This document shows, piece after piece, positions 57,576 through 63,602 of a stretch of 64,000 bases of DNA. Made by a program: the position numbers and the translations under genes. The notes beneath the pieces were generated by a model, which was not told the origin of the DNA, searched no databases, and saw nothing but the letters and a program-made list of their open reading frames with translations. Position 1 is the stretch's first letter, and the number at the start of each line of letters is the position of its first letter. This stretch comes from Candidatus Daviesbacteria bacterium RIFCSPHIGHO2_02_FULL_43_12 (GTDB lineage Bacteria > Patescibacteriota > Microgenomatia > Daviesbacterales > UBA10151): contig MFDD01000014.1 in assembly GCA_001776775.1 (NCBI GenBank), positions 126,053 to 190,052 on the forward strand, given 5' to 3'.

Positions 57576-58532
57576 ATGCTTCAAGAAACTACTATTGTTA
57601 CTATTGGACATATTACCAATGACCTGGGCCAAGACGAGGTCCCTGATCATCTCGGAGGCGGTGCTGCTTATTCGGCTGTAGCTGCCAAGAATCTGGGGCT
57701 TGATGTACATATTGTCACTAAATGTCCGCCGGATCACCCCTATGTCGAAGAGCTTCGTCATAGGGGCATCCATGTACACGTTCTACCCTCTCCACTGGAT
57801 CGAATTACCACTTTCCGCAATAATTATAACCAATGGGGACATAGACAACAGAAATCTCCAGAACAGCAAGAGCCGATATCTATAGCTGACTGGGAAGCTT
57901 TTCCGCATCAGGCCATGGGAGGTGCAAGTATCCTAGTTGCTCCGGTGGTGGGAGAAGTCGATCCCCAACTTTTTCCCATGCTCGCGAGCATGGGTTCTTT
58001 AAGTGTTACTCCTCAGGGATATTTTAGAAAGATTAATGAAGAAGGCGCAGTTTCACAACAGCCCTGGGCAGAATCTTCTGCTCTTGGGACTGTCGGGCTT
58101 ACAATCTTAAGTGATGAGGACTTAGGTAATGCAGGTAGGATTGATTTAGCTCAGCTTAGAACAATTCGAGCCACTAAAACGACAGTAGTTTTGACCCAAG
58201 GCTCAAGTGGAGCGACCATCTATGAACCTGGCCACCAACCGATCTCAACGGACTGTTTCCGCCTTCAGCCAGAAGAGGGTCGAAATTTTACCGGAGCCGG
58301 AGATATCTTTGCCGCTGCAATGTTGGTTTGTCGAGCGAGAGGATCAATCGTCAGGAAGGCCGTCACTAATGCACATCTTTTTGCAGCCCTCAAGATTGCT
58401 GGGCCGGGCGGTGACGGGATCGAGTCAATACCCACCAGGCAACACTTTGACGACTTTATGGCTGACCAGGCACCAAGAGTAAGAACGTTTATGACTAGAT
58501 CAGGCGTGCGTAGACTTAATTTGTTTAAGTAG
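57576..58532 (+). CDS. PfkB-family carbohydrate/nucleoside kinase
   Basis: N-terminal GGGAAYSAVAAKNLG and C-terminal GAGDIFAAAML (the anion-hole GAGD motif) are diagnostic of ribokinase/PfkB kinases. Confidence 0.6.
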   Translation: MLQETTIVTIGHITNDLGQDEVPDHLGGGAAYSAVAAKNLGLDVHIVTKCPPDHPYVEELRHRGIHVHVLPSPLDRITTFRNNYNQWGHRQQKSPEQQEPISIADWEAFPHQAMGGASILVAPVVGEVDPQLFPMLASMGSLSVTPQGYFRKINEEGAVSQQPWAESSALGTVGLTILSDEDLGNAGRIDLAQLRTIRATKTTVVLTQGSSGATIYEPGHQPISTDCFRLQPEEGRNFTGAGDIFAAAMLVCRARGSIVRKAVTNAHLFAALKIAGPGGDGIESIPTRQHFDDFMADQAPRVRTFMTRSGVRRLNLFK

Positions 58533-59127
58533 AGTTGAGTCTTGTTGGGTTTTTGAAGATTTTGCCATGGCCGGGAATGATTGGGTCAGCCTTTTCTAAA
58601 ACAAGATCTCGAGATTTCATCAAAGCTTTTTCATCGGTAGCATATGGATCCTTGAAGCTTAATAAATCCTCTTTCGTTTCTGACTTTTGTTGACCATCTT
58701 CCCACCAGAAGACATCACCAGCGATACAAATTACTCCTTCTTTGGTACTTACCAACAGTGAGGAATGATCAGAAGTATGTCCGGGGGTGGGTAAAATAGC
58801 GATATCTGTCCCAGGAATAAAATCCGAATGAAAGTATTCTTTGTCTTTTCGCCACTTAATAGTCCCCTCATAGATGTCTAAATTGGGAAAGAGGTTGATA
58901 TTTAAGAAATGATCCGGGTGGTAGTGGCTAATGTAGATCAAGCTGATCTCCTCTGGTTTGATATTCAGTTTAGCTAAGCCTGCCAGAAGCAACTCCTTAT
59001 TAGCCCCTGGGTCGACTAGGATCTTTTTATCCGATGTCTCGATGAGCGAGGTAGTTGAACTGGCTAAGAATGAGTCGTTCGGTCCAGGACGAGCATAACC
59101 TTCTACTAAAACTGTCACCTTATTCAT
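58525..59127 (-). CDS. MBL-fold metallo-hydrolase
   Basis: ISHYHPDH (HxHxDH), later HTSDH and a terminal GHG are the metallo-beta-lactamase-fold zinc ligands. Confidence 0.7.
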   Translation of the reverse strand: MNKVTVLVEGYARPGPNDSFLASSTTSLIETSDKKILVDPGANKELLLAGLAKLNIKPEEISLIYISHYHPDHFLNINLFPNLDIYEGTIKWRKDKEYFHSDFIPGTDIAILPTPGHTSDHSSLLVSTKEGVICIAGDVFWWEDGQQKSETKEDLLSFKDPYATDEKALMKSRDLVLEKADPIIPGHGKIFKNPTRLNST

Positions 59128-59806: not shown

Positions 59807-60487
59807 TTGTTTAAATCTCTGGCTTGGGGTAAAATTGATCTGATGCAAGAAGGTGCCTTGATGGAGACATTTTATGGTGGTTTCAAATTAATCCACTACA
59901 AAAAAGGGGAGGTTATTTTGCATGCCGGAGATATCCCTAGAGGAGTGTTTTCTTTGGTTAAAGGCTACGTTCGCCAATATTCTATTTCTCCGGAAGGTGA
60001 GGAATTTACTTCCATTATTTTTATGCCGGGAGATTTTTTTCCGAGTATCTGGGCTGTGCATGGCAGCGAATTTCTTTATTATCTGGAAACTCTAACTCCC
60101 GTTGAGCTAAGATGTGTCCCCCGTGATGAGTTTTTGTCATCTATAAAGTCTCACCATGAGATGTGTTTTAACTTATCCAGCAAGATTCTGGTTAGAATGG
60201 GTGGCTTGATGACCCGGATGGAACATCTGGTGTTCGGTAACGCGGCAGACAAGGTAACCTCTATCTTGATTCTTTGTGCAGAAAGATTTGGACAAAAAAG
60301 CGGTCAGGGAGTCGAGCTGCCGATGGTCTTATCTCATAAACAGATTGCTAGTTTAGTAGGGGTTAGCCGGGAGACGGCCAGTGTCGAAATTAAAAACCTA
60401 GAAAGAGAGGGATTTGTGGGGTATAAGAAGCGGCGAATTGTGATAAAAAACATTGAGGAACTAAAATCACACTCACTGCTAAGATAG
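59807..60487 (+). CDS. Crp/Fnr-family transcriptional regulator
   Basis: cNMP-binding beta-roll (GEVILHAGDIPRGVFSLVKGYV) and a C-terminal HTH (HKQIASLVGVSRETASVEIKNLEREGFV). Confidence 0.7.
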   Translation: MFKSLAWGKIDLMQEGALMETFYGGFKLIHYKKGEVILHAGDIPRGVFSLVKGYVRQYSISPEGEEFTSIIFMPGDFFPSIWAVHGSEFLYYLETLTPVELRCVPRDEFLSSIKSHHEMCFNLSSKILVRMGGLMTRMEHLVFGNAADKVTSILILCAERFGQKSGQGVELPMVLSHKQIASLVGVSRETASVEIKNLEREGFVGYKKRRIVIKNIEELKSHSLLR

Positions 60488-61066
60488 TCTTCCTAATTTA
60501 CGAGTAGTTAATTTGTGTTTAAGAATTACCAGCGCGATCGTTAAATTTACAAAAAACAAGGCTGTGGGAAAAAGAAAAGTGGCCAGGTTTAACCTTTCCA
60601 AAGCCAGAATAGATAATCCATGACGGAAGATATTTAGAAAATAGGTCATAAATGTTTCACTACGGGGAGATTTGATAGTCTTGCGCAGAGTTGGGACAGC
60701 GGCTGAGACGTCGATTAAGGTAATAATTATTACCGAGAGCGTGGGGTCTTTAGTGAGTATCCAGGGGATAATCGCCAGCAAGGCCCCTCCAAAAAAGAAC
60801 TTATCTGATCTGGTGATATCTTTGCTGCCTTTTTTGAAGGCGAGTATGGCAATAAGGATGGTCATTAGACCGGTGGCGGCAGTGGTCCAGGAACCGGCTC
60901 CCCCACCTTTTTGCCATTGACCTAAAAAGGCGATTATCGTCATTACTGCCCAAATGATCCAGGAAAAGACATGTGGCTTGGTTTTGTTTTTGAGGATATC
61001 TAAGATGTAGAAGCCGTGGCCGATAATAGTTAAGATAACGGCGATAATTCCGATAAGCTCTTTCAT
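60479..61066 (-). CDS. Integral membrane protein (hypothetical)
   Basis: 195 aa with six hydrophobic helices. Confidence 0.3.
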   Translation of the reverse strand: MKELIGIIAVILTIIGHGFYILDILKNKTKPHVFSWIIWAVMTIIAFLGQWQKGGGAGSWTTAATGLMTILIAILAFKKGSKDITRSDKFFFGGALLAIIPWILTKDPTLSVIIITLIDVSAAVPTLRKTIKSPRSETFMTYFLNIFRHGLSILALERLNLATFLFPTALFFVNLTIALVILKHKLTTRKLGRLS

Positions 61067-61119: not shown

Positions 61120-62184
61120 ATGGCATCCAGATTTGCATATTGCTATAAGACATGTTATGATCTGGTGGTATTTACAACTATGGCCTCAGAAACAGATGGA
61201 CCAACTATTATTCATCGAGCCAAAGAACAAGGACCACCCGGATGGCCAGTTCGTTTGGTAGCTATGGCGGTGAGACACGGCGAAAAACAGGGCGAGGGGT
61301 TAACCTTAAGAGGAGAATTGGCTGCTGCCACTAAAGGTGTCCTCCTCAGAAACTCTGGTGACTTCGCAGGGCTAACCACTAAACCCTACGTAAGCCCAAA
61401 GGATAGGACTGTCCACACCATTACCCGGATTATGAGACAGGTAGACCCAATGTTTGATGAAACACAACCAATGCGAGCAAAGGGCTTACTGCTTGGATTT
61501 GGCTCAGCTGGAGAAAGAAACCCGGAAGATAATTTTTGGGGTGTAGAAGGACAGAGAACGGATGCTGTAGTTACCAGAGATCAAGAGATTCGAGATCCTG
61601 CTTTACTTGGCAGATCTCGTGATGAGCTTGAAGAAGAAGTTATTAAAGAATGGCTGAGGGGTGAGGACAGGGAGTTGGTCGGACTTCATAACCCAGTGGA
61701 TGCTGCAGCCGATACTTCAGTTGCCGTGGCGAGAGCGATTGGCTCACTTAGTCTAGTTACATCTTCCCTATTCCCCCAAGTAAACAATTTGAGACTTGCA
61801 GGTTATGATACTGATACTTTGCCGGTGACAGATATCGTAGGTGAGCTATGGGCAAGCAGACCCTTAGTTAGAGAGAACGCTGGTCTGATCGGCGGAACGC
61901 ATCGAGGGGTTTGGGAACCATGGATGACTTCGGGAGTTTTACTTCATGAAAGCGGCAAACCGGTTACCGATATCGAAGCGGTCGGAGGGGTATTAGGCTT
62001 TTTGGATAGTGTCAGATTGGAAGCTCAACGAGATGCGGAAGGTCTTATTACGGCTAGTTTTAGAGTAGACAAGCTATCTGGAGAAGAAGGAGACTCCTTC
62101 GATGTTGATTTTAACAAACTCAATGAACTCTATACGCTTGGAGTCTGGCGAATACGTCAAAGAAGGGCTGGCAAAATCTCCTAA
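61120..62184 (+). CDS. Hypothetical protein, first gene of a three-gene unit with the PEP-utilizing swivel domain
   Basis: 354-aa ORF, noticeably more GC-rich than its surroundings. No motif I can assign. Confidence 0.3.
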   Translation: MASRFAYCYKTCYDLVVFTTMASETDGPTIIHRAKEQGPPGWPVRLVAMAVRHGEKQGEGLTLRGELAAATKGVLLRNSGDFAGLTTKPYVSPKDRTVHTITRIMRQVDPMFDETQPMRAKGLLLGFGSAGERNPEDNFWGVEGQRTDAVVTRDQEIRDPALLGRSRDELEEEVIKEWLRGEDRELVGLHNPVDAAADTSVAVARAIGSLSLVTSSLFPQVNNLRLAGYDTDTLPVTDIVGELWASRPLVRENAGLIGGTHRGVWEPWMTSGVLLHESGKPVTDIEAVGGVLGFLDSVRLEAQRDAEGLITASFRVDKLSGEEGDSFDVDFNKLNELYTLGVWRIRQRRAGKIS

Positions 62185-62211
62185 CTACAACTTTACTGAT
62201 ATAATTTCTCC

Positions 62212-62541
62212 ATGAAAGAATTAGTCCTTGAAGGTACTCCAGCTAGTCAGGGTTCCGCTACAGGCCCAGCCAAAATACTATTTCCCCGGCAAGACATCTC
62301 AGGATTTAAGGAAGGCGACATTTTAGTCACGAATATGACTGATCCCTCTATGGTCCTGGTGATGAGTATGGCCTCGGCGATTGTGACTGATATTGGTGGA
62401 GTGACGGCTCATGCTGCTATATTGAGCCGGGAATTAGGTATTCCCTGTGTAGTCGCGACAAAGCTTGGAACCAAGACTTTAAAAAATGGCGATCAAGTAT
62501 ATGTCGATGGCACCCAGGGTAAGGTTTATAAATTAAAATGA
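62212..62541 (+). CDS. Stand-alone PEP-utilizing-enzyme mobile (phosphohistidine swivel) domain protein
   Basis: GDILVTNMTDPSMVLVMSMASAIVTDIGGVTAHAAILSRELGIPCVV matches the swivel domain of PEP synthase / PPDK / rifampicin phosphotransferase (T-D-x-GG-x-T/S-H-A-A-I-x-x-R-E-x-G-I-P), with the catalytic His present. Confidence 0.6.
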   Translation: MKELVLEGTPASQGSATGPAKILFPRQDISGFKEGDILVTNMTDPSMVLVMSMASAIVTDIGGVTAHAAILSRELGIPCVVATKLGTKTLKNGDQVYVDGTQGKVYKLK

Positions 62542-63602
62542 AGAAAAACGGACAGCTATTTGAAGAGTTTATCACTGGGATATCAGCCAACGCTTTAGGT
62601 ACCTCAGCCGAGGCCGAAAAACCGTTTCCGATGACTGACTCTTTGCCCCTGTGGTATGACCTGTTTGTGATTAAAGTCGCGGAGGCTTTACAAAAAAATA
62701 AGCTTCAACCAGAACTACTCCCCACTGTTTCTAACCTGCGCTTTATTTTGTATAAAATTATGCGCTCGTATGTGGGACTGTCTGAGGAGAGAAAACGGCA
62801 GGTTCAAAAGCCTTACCAGAAAGTTTTTAATCTCTTGCTAGAAACCATTCGCAAGCTTGTGCCGATTGATTCGTTTTGTGTGCACTCTAACCTGTACTGG
62901 AGTCAGGAAGAGGTAGAAGACAGACTCAGTCAGTTAGAATTAAGCCCAGTTCAAGATCGAGAGGAATCTAGGTTGATTGCCAAGCTCAACTTAGGGCTAA
63001 CGAGCTTGGTCCACGGATTGTATAACGATATCGTCACCGATTTTGGGATCGATGTTTACGGACCGTACCAGGTAGCTATCGATGGTCAGGAGTATGCGCT
63101 GCTGGTGAAAAACTTTCCTGATCTAAACCCCCTAGCTCTTAGCTGGCCCCAGCAGTTTTTACCCAAGATCAAGCAGGTTTATATGTACTTATTATATGCA
63201 GGAACCAAATGGGAGATTAAAGGTGTCGGGTGTCACACTAACTTACTCTCCGGAAACCCAATTGATGATTTAAGAAAAGTAGCCGTGGTGGCTGATGGAG
63301 AGATATTAGATCAAAAAGAGATAGAGGCCCTAACTAAAGAAACTCTCCTTAAATCTCAAGACCTCTACATTCATATTATTGACTCTGGATTTGAGGAACA
63401 AAAGAAACAAGCCCTTTTCCAAGAGTGTTTTCAGTTTAAAAAGCTATTTGATAAAGCTGGGATAGATTGGAAACCCAGCCAGGAGATGATAGCAAGAGTG
63501 GCTGGAAAAGAGATTATCCCCACTCCGGGAGTAATCCAGGATATGACCGAATACCGCCAAAAACTTGGAGTAGATAGGTTTAAAGAAGAGGTCGTTTTAT
63601 AG
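62538..63602 (+). CDS. Hypothetical protein, third gene of the unit (4-bp overlap with the swivel-domain gene)
   Basis: 354-aa ORF translationally coupled to the PEP-utilizer domain gene. No assignable motif. Confidence 0.3.
   Translation: MKKNGQLFEEFITGISANALGTSAEAEKPFPMTDSLPLWYDLFVIKVAEALQKNKLQPELLPTVSNLRFILYKIMRSYVGLSEERKRQVQKPYQKVFNLLLETIRKLVPIDSFCVHSNLYWSQEEVEDRLSQLELSPVQDREESRLIAKLNLGLTSLVHGLYNDIVTDFGIDVYGPYQVAIDGQEYALLVKNFPDLNPLALSWPQQFLPKIKQVYMYLLYAGTKWEIKGVGCHTNLLSGNPIDDLRKVAVVADGEILDQKEIEALTKETLLKSQDLYIHIIDSGFEEQKKQALFQECFQFKKLFDKAGIDWKPSQEMIARVAGKEIIPTPGVIQDMTEYRQKLGVDRFKEEVVL

What the first reader, a model, noticed from the sequence alone, without database searches (positions are those of the whole stretch)
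61120..63602. Three-gene unit built around a stand-alone PEP-utilizing phosphohistidine swivel domain
A 109-aa protein consists solely of the PEP-utilizers mobile domain, with the GGxTAHAAIxxRExGIP His motif intact. It is flanked, with translational coupling, by two unrelated 354-aa proteins of unknown function. In PEP synthase, PPDK and rifampicin phosphotransferase this swivel domain shuttles phosphate between an ATP-grasp-like domain and a substrate-binding domain within a single polypeptide. A split three-protein version would be a distinct phosphotransfer system with an unknown substrate. The unit is also compositionally more GC-rich than its surroundings, which hints at horizontal acquisition.
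Basis: partly seen in the sequence, partly recalled or inferred. Interest (0 to 1): 0.6.

Follow-up and report, generated by a model that had tools for sequence, protein, structure and literature searches.

The report
Split phosphotransfer module with free swivel domain
A small free-standing phosphate-carrying protein, normally an internal domain of PEP synthase, is always paired in a few ultra-small (CPR) bacteria with a protein of unrecognised fold. It is often joined by a phosphoglycerate-mutase-like enzyme, which points to an undescribed split phosphotransfer enzyme with an unknown substrate.

Summary
The three ORFs are real and under purifying selection. B (62212-62541) is a complete stand-alone PEP-synthase-type swivel domain with His67 and Thr65 intact.

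- **A** (probably 61180-62184, 334 aa) is not an ATP-grasp. It is a divergent histidine-phosphatase (PGAM-fold) protein with the R-H...R...H catalytic core.
- **C** (62538-63602) is neither an ATP-grasp nor a TIM barrel. A confident model (pLDDT 91) matches nothing in PDB or BFVD.
- **B-C pairing.** B lies immediately upstream of C in 25 of 27 CPR loci with upstream DNA. A intervenes in one and the two are fused in another; a diverged paralogue is also fused.
- **A linkage.** A is adjacent in 15 of 27 loci. Every A-family member with known context sits beside a swivel gene.
- **ATP-grasp.** A stand-alone PPDK_N follows C directly in one relative (L009). None is in this window or the next 10 kb.

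Best reading: B and C are the carrier and acceptor modules of a split dikinase-like enzyme. It would be charged in trans by an ATP-grasp subunit, with A as a phosphatase or relay accessory. The substrate is unknown. The GC hint of horizontal transfer is weak. This is a new variant of a known kind.

The parts
61180..62184 (+). Gene A: divergent histidine-phosphatase-superfamily (PGAM-fold) protein, 334 aa. An alternative start at 61120 would give 354 aa. Catalytic core is R32-H33 (H33 codon 61276-61278), R76 and H241.
   Evidence: The family profile hits only histidine-phosphatase chains in PDB, 27 in all, best E 0.0057. The AF2 model (pLDDT 74.9) gives 52 Foldseek hits at E<=1e-3; all 50 listed are histidine phosphatases. 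Family members pass Pfam PF00300 gathering. The core residues are conserved in 24-26 of 26 sequences. dN/dS is 0.20.
62212..62541 (+). Gene B: stand-alone PEP-synthase-type phosphohistidine swivel domain, 109 aa. His67 is at codon 62410-62412; Thr65 is at His-2.
   Evidence: PF00391 E 7.7e-27. It matches PEPS NF005057 positions 355-462 at E 1e-37 and PDB 8a8e at E 3e-30. His is conserved in 29 of 29 C-linked B proteins and Thr in 28 of 29.
62538..63602 (+). Gene C: 354-aa alpha+beta protein of unrecognised fold and the obligate partner of B. It is the proposed acceptor or substrate module. Residues conserved across the family: R68, D111, H159, Y162, D164, H233, E286, K289, Q295, W311.
   Evidence: It overlaps the B stop by 4 nt. 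B lies immediately upstream of C in 25 of 27 loci, with A intervening in L031 and fusion in L010; the L015 paralogue is also fused. The AF2 model has pLDDT 90.9 and pTM 0.89. There is no match in PDB, BFVD, PDB sequences, Pfam or NCBIfam. Conserved residues were computed over 46 sequences.
61132..61161 (+). Promoter-like site (TTTGCA-18-TATGAT with an upstream TG) ahead of the 61180 start of A.
   Evidence: Consensus scan only. The number of sites in the region is no higher than in shuffles. It is used only as weak support for the 61180 start.

Best explanation
B and C together form the carrier and acceptor halves of a split, PEP-synthase-derived dikinase-type phosphotransfer enzyme.

Proposed mechanism:
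1. B-His67 is (pyro)phosphorylated by an ATP-grasp PPDK_N subunit encoded elsewhere in this genome. In relative L009 that subunit is encoded directly after C.
2. B then docks on C.
3. C's conserved polar pocket (R68, D111, H159, Y162, D164, H233, E286, K289) binds an unknown acceptor, which receives the phosphoryl group.
4. A is a catalytically intact PGAM-fold histidine phosphatase and acts as an accessory. It most likely removes phosphate from B-His~P (a SixA-like reset) or takes it over from B. Less likely, it dephosphorylates the product.

Shown: domain identities, intact catalytic residues, obligate B-C linkage with fusions, the A-swivel linkage, and the L009 four-gene operon.

Inferred: the direction of phosphoryl flow, ATP as donor, the role of A, and a possibly carbohydrate-type substrate.
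For: 1. B is a complete PEPS-type swivel with His and Thr conserved in all relatives.
2. B is immediately upstream of C in 25 of 27 distinct loci with upstream DNA (A intervenes in L031). B and C are one polypeptide in L010 (470 aa) and in the paralogue L015 (472 aa), with a second B'-C' pair in L023.
3. The fusion order swivel-then-C mirrors the order swivel-then-acceptor domain in PEPS.
4. In L009 the operon is A-B-C followed 2 nt later by a 312-aa stand-alone PPDK_N (PF01326, E 2e-99). L010 has a PPDK_N plus its own swivel 2 kb away.
5. Relatives of that stand-alone PPDK_N are split-dikinase subunits. Of 23 with at least 2.5 kb of context, 19 sit beside separate swivel-bearing proteins. This is the layout of the characterised two-component dikinases HpeHI, CreHI and PpsAB (PMC12167813).
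6. A has the histidine-phosphatase fold and the R-H...R...H core.
7. A-family proteins are rare: 8 hits among 1.84e9 representatives. Yet every one with known context lies beside a swivel gene. That covers 15 of 27 B-C loci, 7 stand-alone-N loci at E<=1e-5, and P0030 and P0027 when starting from A itself.
8. A occurs with different acceptor modules, which suggests it acts on the shared element, the swivel.
9. Precedents: SixA, of the same superfamily, dephosphorylates pHis on NPr and Ndk (PMC7948535, PMC6282199, PMC12934123). Phenylphosphate synthase has a third, stimulatory subunit of unknown role (PMC6114531).
10. All three genes are under purifying selection.
Against: - No PPDK_N is encoded in the 64-kb window or the next 10 kb. 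Only 2 of 27 loci have one nearby, so the ATP donor is inferred for this genome.
- C has no recognisable substrate-binding or catalytic fold, so its role as acceptor rather than donor is assigned by position and analogy only.
- A is absent from 12 of 27 loci, so it is not essential to B-C.
- No biochemical data exist for any member.
- The carbohydrate hints are weak and inconsistent. They are TrmB-type regulators in 7 loci and glycosyltransferase, flippase or PGI neighbours in L019 and L022.
Confidence: 0.55

Rival explanations
1. The unit is a self-contained three-protein relay. C is a new kind of phosphoryl-donor-binding domain (nucleotide, PEP, polyphosphate or acyl phosphate) that charges B-His67. 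B then passes the phosphate to the nucleophilic His33 of A, which transfers it to a metabolite or to water. No ATP-grasp is needed.
For: - The A-B-C triad recurs without a PPDK_N in 14 of the 15 loci that have A.
- A is a far more frequent neighbour than PPDK_N.
- A keeps the phospho-His-forming core.
- His-to-His relays are established chemistry in the PTS (established knowledge).
Against: - C has no P-loop, ATP-grasp, TIM-barrel or other known donor-binding signature.
- A is missing from 12 of 27 B-C loci.
- The L009 operon adds a PPDK_N directly after C.
- All characterised swivel systems are charged by an ATP-grasp or a PEP-binding barrel (PMC12167813).
Confidence: 0.2
2. B is a regulatory phospho-switch rather than a catalytic carrier, as proposed for the PEPut domain appended to some pyruvate kinases. 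C is an enzyme or effector whose activity depends on the phosphorylation state of B at His67 or Thr65, and A sets that state as a protein phosphatase.
For: - B matches the C-terminal extra domain of pyruvate kinases (2e28, 3t05).
- B keeps the Thr at His-2, which is the regulatory phosphorylation site in PEPS and PPDK (PMC12167813).
- Members of A's superfamily act as protein pHis phosphatases (PMC7948535, PMC12934123).
Against: - The strict conservation of the whole catalytic motif and the PEPS-like fusion order fit catalysis at least as well.
- C carries a conserved polar constellation typical of an active site, but that does not discriminate between the two readings.
- No kinase for Thr65 (DUF299/PSRP) was seen in any locus.
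Confidence: 0.12
3. The 109-aa ORF is a remnant of a degraded PEP synthase or PPDK gene, and the unit is a chance juxtaposition.
For: B's closest relatives are the central domains of full-length PEP synthases.
Against: - B is conserved as a 108-134 aa stand-alone ORF beside C across Microgenomates, Parcubacteria-type lineages, Gracilibacteria-labelled and Saccharibacteria MAGs.
- The full motif is intact.
- Selection is purifying: pN 0.09 against pS 0.76.
- The flanking ORFs show no PPDK_N or PEP-utilizers_C remnants.
Confidence: 0.01

Closest known systems
Two-component small-molecule dikinases HpeHI, CreHI and PpsAB(C) (phenylphosphate synthase), and their single-chain relative rifampin phosphotransferase RPH
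   Same: These are split dikinases in which a phospho-His swivel domain shuttles between an ATP-grasp on one polypeptide and a non-TIM-barrel acceptor domain on another (PMC12167813). PpsABC also has a third accessory subunit of unknown role (PMC6114531). Relatives of the L009 stand-alone PPDK_N show exactly this layout in the metagenomic loci retrieved with it.
   Different: - Here the swivel is a free 109-aa protein, or is fused N-terminally to its partner. In the known systems it is fused to the C-terminus of the substrate domain.
- The partner C shows no similarity to the RIF-binding or HpeH substrate domain. PDB holds RPH structures and Foldseek found nothing.
- The swivel is PEPS-type, with Thr rather than Met at His-2.
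- The accessory is a PGAM-fold protein rather than a CBS-domain protein.
- The ATP-grasp is not in the operon in this genome.
PEP synthase / pyruvate phosphate dikinase (PPDK_N + PEP-utilizers + PEP-utilizers_C)
   Same: B is about 59% identical to the PEPS central domain and has the same GGxT(S/A)H motif. The PPDK_N in L009 matches PF01326 at E 2e-99. The order swivel-then-acceptor is kept in the B-C fusions.
   Different: There is no TIM-barrel PEP/pyruvate domain. The three functions lie on separate polypeptides, and the acceptor domain is replaced by an unrelated fold.
SixA and other histidine-phosphatase-superfamily phosphohistidine phosphatases (e.g. PGAM5)
   Same: A shares the fold and the R-H...R...H catalytic core. 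SixA acts on phospho-His carriers of a PEP-dependent relay (NPr) and on Ndk (PMC7948535, PMC6282199, PMC12934123).
   Different: A is twice the size of SixA and has a large helical insertion, including a poorly predicted 193-226 region. It has an RH[GAST][EQ]K motif and is operon-linked to swivel-domain genes. Its substrate is untested.
PTS Enzyme I / HPr phosphocarrier logic
   Same: A small diffusible His-phosphocarrier protein passes phosphate between separate proteins. The EI N-terminal domain contains the same swivel fold.
   Different: No HPr, EIIA or EI C-terminal PEP-binding domain is present, and B is closer to PEPS than to EI.

Membership tests
PEP-utilising enzyme mobile (swivel) domain, PF00391 | Full-length match to the family profile above the curated cut-off | tested here: met
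   93.2 bits against a cut-off of 23.1, profile positions 1-72 of 72.
PEP-utilising enzyme mobile (swivel) domain, PF00391 | Catalytic His in the T/S-x-x-G-G-x-x-x-H loop | tested here: met
   The motif TDIGGVTAH67 is present. His is conserved in 29 of 29 C-linked homologues.
PEP-utilising enzyme mobile (swivel) domain, PF00391 | His is actually phosphorylated | not testable with these tools
   This needs 32P-labelling or mass spectrometry.
PEP synthase / PPDK three-domain dikinase | ATP-grasp nucleotide-binding domain (PF01326) in the enzyme | tested here: not met
   A and C have no PF01326 match. No PPDK_N homologue is in the 64-kb window or 10 kb downstream. It is present only in the relatives L009 and L010.
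PEP synthase / PPDK three-domain dikinase | C-terminal PEP/pyruvate-binding TIM barrel (PF02896) | tested here: not met
   None of the 22 C members gives a Pfam hit to it, even at E<=1. The C model is all-alpha plus a 6-stranded sheet and matches no PPDK, PEPS or EI structure.
Two-component RPH-like small-molecule dikinases (HpeHI/CreHI/PpsAB) | Separate ATP-grasp subunit encoded with the swivel-bearing subunit | tested here: inconclusive
   Met in L009 and nearby in L010. Not met in the window or in 25 of 27 loci. The rest of the genome is not visible.
Two-component RPH-like small-molecule dikinases (HpeHI/CreHI/PpsAB) | Substrate domain homologous to the RIF-binding domain, with the swivel at its C-terminus | tested here: not met
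   C shows no Foldseek match to any PDB chain, RPH entries included. The swivel is free or N-terminal to C.
Two-component RPH-like small-molecule dikinases (HpeHI/CreHI/PpsAB) | Met, not Thr, at His-2 (per PMC12167813) | tested here: not met
   B has Thr65. Thr is present in 28 of 29 homologues.
Histidine phosphatase superfamily (PF00300, PGAM-like) | N-terminal RHG-type motif with the nucleophilic His | tested here: met
   The motif is VRH33GEK. R32 and H33 are conserved in 24 of 26 sequences; the other two are N-terminally truncated.
Histidine phosphatase superfamily (PF00300, PGAM-like) | Second Arg and second His completing the phosphate pocket | tested here: met
   R76 is conserved in 25 of 26 and H241 in 26 of 26. 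R76 aligns with the S..R..T motif of PGAMs.
Histidine phosphatase superfamily (PF00300, PGAM-like) | Alpha/beta fold of the superfamily | tested here: met
   52 Foldseek hits at E<=1e-3; all 50 listed are superfamily members, at probability about 1.0. TM-scores are only 0.3-0.5, because of a large insertion and a moderate-confidence model.
Histidine phosphatase superfamily (PF00300, PGAM-like) | Profile match above the Pfam gathering score | tested here: inconclusive
   The window's A gives no Pfam hit. Its homologues do: L031 35.3, L091 34.1, L072 33.5, L051 24.6, L002 23.0 and P0030 22.1 bits against a cut-off of 21.7. A matches the family HMM at E 5e-96.
SixA-type phosphohistidine phosphatase | Dephosphorylates a phospho-His carrier protein | not testable with these tools
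   Inferred only from the exclusive genomic linkage to swivel genes.
Known anti-phage defence systems (PADLOC) | Match to any defence-system protein model | tested here: not met
   There are no hits for A, B, C, N, X or c2. No relatives are found in viral contigs.

The most novel reading that the evidence does not exclude
The free swivel protein is a diffusible His-phosphocarrier, used HPr-like, in a previously undescribed ATP-driven relay of CPR bacteria. A stand-alone ATP-grasp charges it. It delivers phosphate to a catalytic domain of a new fold (C) acting on an unknown, possibly glycan or sugar, substrate. A dedicated PGAM-fold enzyme (A) exchanges phosphate with the carrier by direct His-to-His transfer or hydrolysis. 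This would be a new regulatory or relay role for the histidine phosphatase superfamily inside dikinase systems generally.
Probability: 0.25. Interest if true: 0.8.

Novelty: new variant of a known kind. Interest (0 to 1): 0.6.

Why it matters
- **Extends a new subfamily.** Multi-component dikinases were recognised as a subfamily only recently (HpeHI, 2025). This unit adds a fully separated swivel carrier, an acceptor module with no recognisable fold, and a recurrent PGAM-fold accessory protein. None of the three has been described.
- **CPR biology.** The unit is confined to CPR/Patescibacteria, whose metabolism is poorly understood. The related loci show that these organisms carry arrays of swivel-bearing modules around a single ATP-grasp subunit, which suggests a modular phosphorylation toolkit with unknown substrates.
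- **Testable partners.** The work provides concrete recombinant targets: the L009 four-gene operon, His67 of B, His33 of A and the conserved pocket of C.
- **Scope.** The family is small (about 22 protein clusters and 24 species-level genomes), so the immediate impact is specialist.

Tried and rejected
- **Sequence searches for C.** Pfam, NCBIfam, and PDB by single sequence and by profile all found nothing.
- **Structure searches for C.** Foldseek against PDB and BFVD gave no hit better than E 0.01 or TM 0.22.
- **C against other swivel partners.** C is not related to the N-terminal region of the swivel-fused protein in L002, nor to the X family P0032. It gave no hits in the 72 stand-alone-PPDK_N loci.
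- **Word-indexed searches for A.** These retrieved almost nothing even with a profile. The exhaustive phmmer found only 8. The family was assembled mainly from neighbourhoods.
- **ATP-grasp reading of A.** Rejected by the fold and the motifs.
- **Decayed-gene reading of B.** Rejected.
- **Defence-system and phage origin.** Rejected.
- **Horizontal transfer from GC.** Not supported beyond a mild excess in A that is absent at third codon positions.
- **Code-25 read-through fusing C to PPDK_N in the Gracilibacteria-labelled L009.** Rejected. C ends in TAA, N is in another frame, and there are no internal TGAs.
- **Literature.** Searches found no description of this unit.
Full report
**Observation.** The window encodes three co-oriented ORFs at 61120-62184, 62212-62541 and 62538-63602.

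- The middle 109-aa protein (B) is a full-length PF00391 swivel domain (E 7.7e-27). Its best matches are the central domain of PEP synthase: NF005057 positions 355-462 at E 1e-37 and PDB 8a8e residues 378-482 at E 3e-30, about 59% identity by my count.
- B carries TDIGGVTAH67AAILSRELGIP, including the Thr at His-2 that marks PEPS, PPDK and EI rather than RPH-type swivels (PMC12167813).
- B and C overlap by ATGA. A and B are separated by 27 nt.
- A most likely starts at 61180 (334 aa). NCBI's own model and the homologues start there, and a promoter-like site lies inside the longer version.
- The source organism is a Candidatus Daviesbacteria MAG, a member of the CPR.
- Compared with a 77-84% identical relative (L108), all three genes are under purifying selection.

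**What A is.** A gives no direct Pfam, NCBIfam or PDB sequence hit. It looked almost orphan in the word-indexed searches and in the exhaustive search, which found 8 hits among 1.84e9 representatives. The proteins encoded upstream of B in related loci align with it, however, and share RH[GAST][EQ]K ... R-T-x-x-T ... [GT]H motifs.

- Several of these relatives pass the Pfam His_Phos_1 gathering score.
- A family profile hits only histidine-phosphatase chains in PDB: 27 hits, aligned over the RH and S..R..T motifs.
- The AlphaFold model (pLDDT 74.9) returns 52 Foldseek hits at E<=1e-3. All 50 listed are from the histidine phosphatase superfamily, including phytase, glucose-1-phosphatase, TIGAR, dPGM, RosC and PGAM5.
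- Across 26 family members, R32-H33, R76 and H241 are essentially invariant.
- A is therefore a catalytically intact PGAM-fold enzyme, not an ATP-grasp.

**What C is.** C has 22 homologous clusters among 5.8e9, all about 355 aa with no Pfam domain, and 24 loci among 185,579 species genomes.

- These genomes are labelled Gracilibacteria, Doudnabacteria, Uhrbacteria, Magasanikbacteria, Saccharibacteria and Patescibacteria group. Five MAGs are labelled Gammaproteobacteria; I did not check those labels.
- The AlphaFold model is confident (pLDDT 90.9, pTM 0.89). It has an N-terminal helical region, a six-stranded sheet and C-terminal helices.
- Foldseek finds nothing in PDB (best E 0.15, TM<=0.15) or BFVD. 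The family profile finds nothing among PDB sequences. No member shows a consistent Pfam match.
- C is therefore neither an ATP-grasp nor a PEP/pyruvate TIM barrel.
- Over 46 C and C' sequences, a polar set is conserved that looks like an active site: R68, D111, H159, Y162, D164, H233, E286 and K289.

**Neighbourhood conservation.** In the 27 distinct loci with upstream DNA, B lies immediately upstream of C in 25.

- A lies between B and C in L031. B and C are a single 470-aa polypeptide in L010. A diverged paralogue is also fused (L015, 472 aa), and L023 carries a second B'-C' pair.
- The catalytic His of B is kept in 29 of 29 and the Thr in 28 of 29.
- A is adjacent in 15 of 27 loci. Its position varies: upstream of B, between B and C in L031, and downstream of C in L022.
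- Eight loci, mostly Saccharibacteria-type, carry another small family (c2, with an RRHA motif) that weakly resembles dPGMs (E 0.04).
- In L009 the operon is A-B-C followed 2 nt later by a 312-aa stand-alone PPDK_N ATP-grasp (PF01326, E 2e-99). L010 has a PPDK_N plus a further swivel 2 kb away.
- No PPDK_N is present in the 64-kb window or in the next 10 kb of the same genome.

**Wider context.** I used the L009 PPDK_N as a probe on metagenome contigs, which returned 72 loci.

- Of 23 stand-alone N genes with at least 2.5 kb of context, 19 sit next to one to four separate proteins of 350-525 aa that carry a C-terminal swivel. This is the layout of the characterised two-component dikinases HpeHI, CreHI and PpsAB (PMC12167813).
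- A-family proteins occur in 7 of the 72 loci at E<=1e-5. In the loci where all three are present (L041, L042, L051) they lie between the swivel protein and N.
- Starting from A-family members themselves gives the same picture. P0030 is flanked by three PF00391 proteins, and P0027 is followed by B and C.
- The rare A family is therefore tied to swivel and dikinase genes irrespective of the acceptor module. That favours a role on the shared swivel phospho-His over a role on a particular product.
- Precedents exist. SixA, of the same superfamily, dephosphorylates the pHis of NPr and Ndk (PMC7948535, PMC6282199, PMC12934123). Phenylphosphate synthase has a third stimulatory subunit of unknown function (PMC6114531).

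**Mechanism proposed.**

1. An ATP-grasp subunit, encoded elsewhere in this genome, (pyro)phosphorylates B-His67.
2. B docks on C.
3. C transfers the phosphoryl group to an unknown acceptor.
4. A resets B~P or relays from it.

The domain identities, catalytic residues, linkage and fusions are shown. The donor, the direction of flow, the role of A and the substrate are inferred. Weak hints point to carbohydrate chemistry: TrmB-type regulators lie divergently upstream in 7 loci, and glycosyltransferase, flippase or PGI genes abut the unit in L019 and L022.

**Rivals.**

- A self-contained relay with C as donor-binding domain and A as terminal phosphotransferase (confidence 0.2).
- A regulatory phospho-switch reading of B (confidence 0.12).
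- A decayed PEPS fragment, which is rejected.

**Composition.** The unit's GC is 0.449 against a window mean of 0.416 (z 1.5). Only A is high (0.479), and its GC3 is 0.37, so the excess reflects amino-acid composition rather than foreign codon usage. The unit is not on viral contigs and matches no known defence system.

**Verdict.** Its specific domain assignment for the two flanking proteins is refuted by its own criterion. The unit is a new variant of the multi-component dikinase theme. It has a free swivel carrier, an acceptor module of unrecognised fold and a PGAM-fold accessory, and it is restricted to CPR bacteria. No publication describing it was found.

Noticed in passing
L002 126-1992 (identical in L003; L014 holds only part of the 349-aa gene at its edge): A second, different unit lies upstream of A-B-C in an Uhrbacteria MAG. 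It comprises a 269-aa protein with RHADKG and GHSG motifs (possibly another histidine phosphatase), a 349-aa protein with a C-terminal swivel, and then a Fic-domain protein.
   Followed up: partly
L004 2225-6077: In this locus A is replaced by an unrelated 325-aa family (P0032-P0034, no Pfam) flanked by two stand-alone swivel genes (101 and 111 aa). A Metallophos phosphoesterase lies just upstream.
   Followed up: partly
L045 109-5051; L091 3-5630; L050; L053: A single stand-alone PPDK_N gene lies next to tandem arrays of three or four different swivel-bearing proteins. This suggests one ATP-grasp subunit serves several acceptor modules.
   Followed up: partly
L054 4992-10073; L063 1297-6537; L098 1-4998; L081 5697-10934: Giant ORFs of 1,300-1,750 aa combine PPDK_N and swivel matches. 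Their other domains were not examined.
   Followed up: no
L011, L018, L020, L023, L025, L027, L029, L030 (e.g. L020 2806-3507): A roughly 233-aa family (c2, with RRHA, LRN and LFDLNFEQ motifs) lies immediately upstream of B in mostly Saccharibacteria-type loci. It has no Pfam match, and four of its nine weak PDB hits, including the best, are dPGMs (E 0.04-0.06).
   Followed up: partly
L015 807-2225; L023 5378-6403: A diverged C' paralogue keeps H159, Y162, D164, H233, E286 and K289. It has lost C232 of the GCHT motif and the DFG-like segment after D164.
   Followed up: partly
window 60479-61066 (-) and 59807-60487 (+): A 195-aa multi-pass membrane protein with no Pfam match is transcribed divergently from A. 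Next to it lies a Crp/FNR-type regulator (cNMP_binding + HTH_Crp_2). Neither recurs in the other loci.
   Followed up: no
window 58525-59127 (-): This metallo-beta-lactamase-fold protein carries a weak precomputed hit to the Anti-Pycsar Apyc1 family in the public annotation (L033, L034).
   Followed up: no
window 61180-62184 vs L108 375-1376: Synonymous divergence of A (pS 0.47) is clearly lower than that of B and C (pS 0.75) in the same genome pair, and A has unusually low GC3 (0.37) for its GC (0.479). This is unexplained.
   Followed up: no
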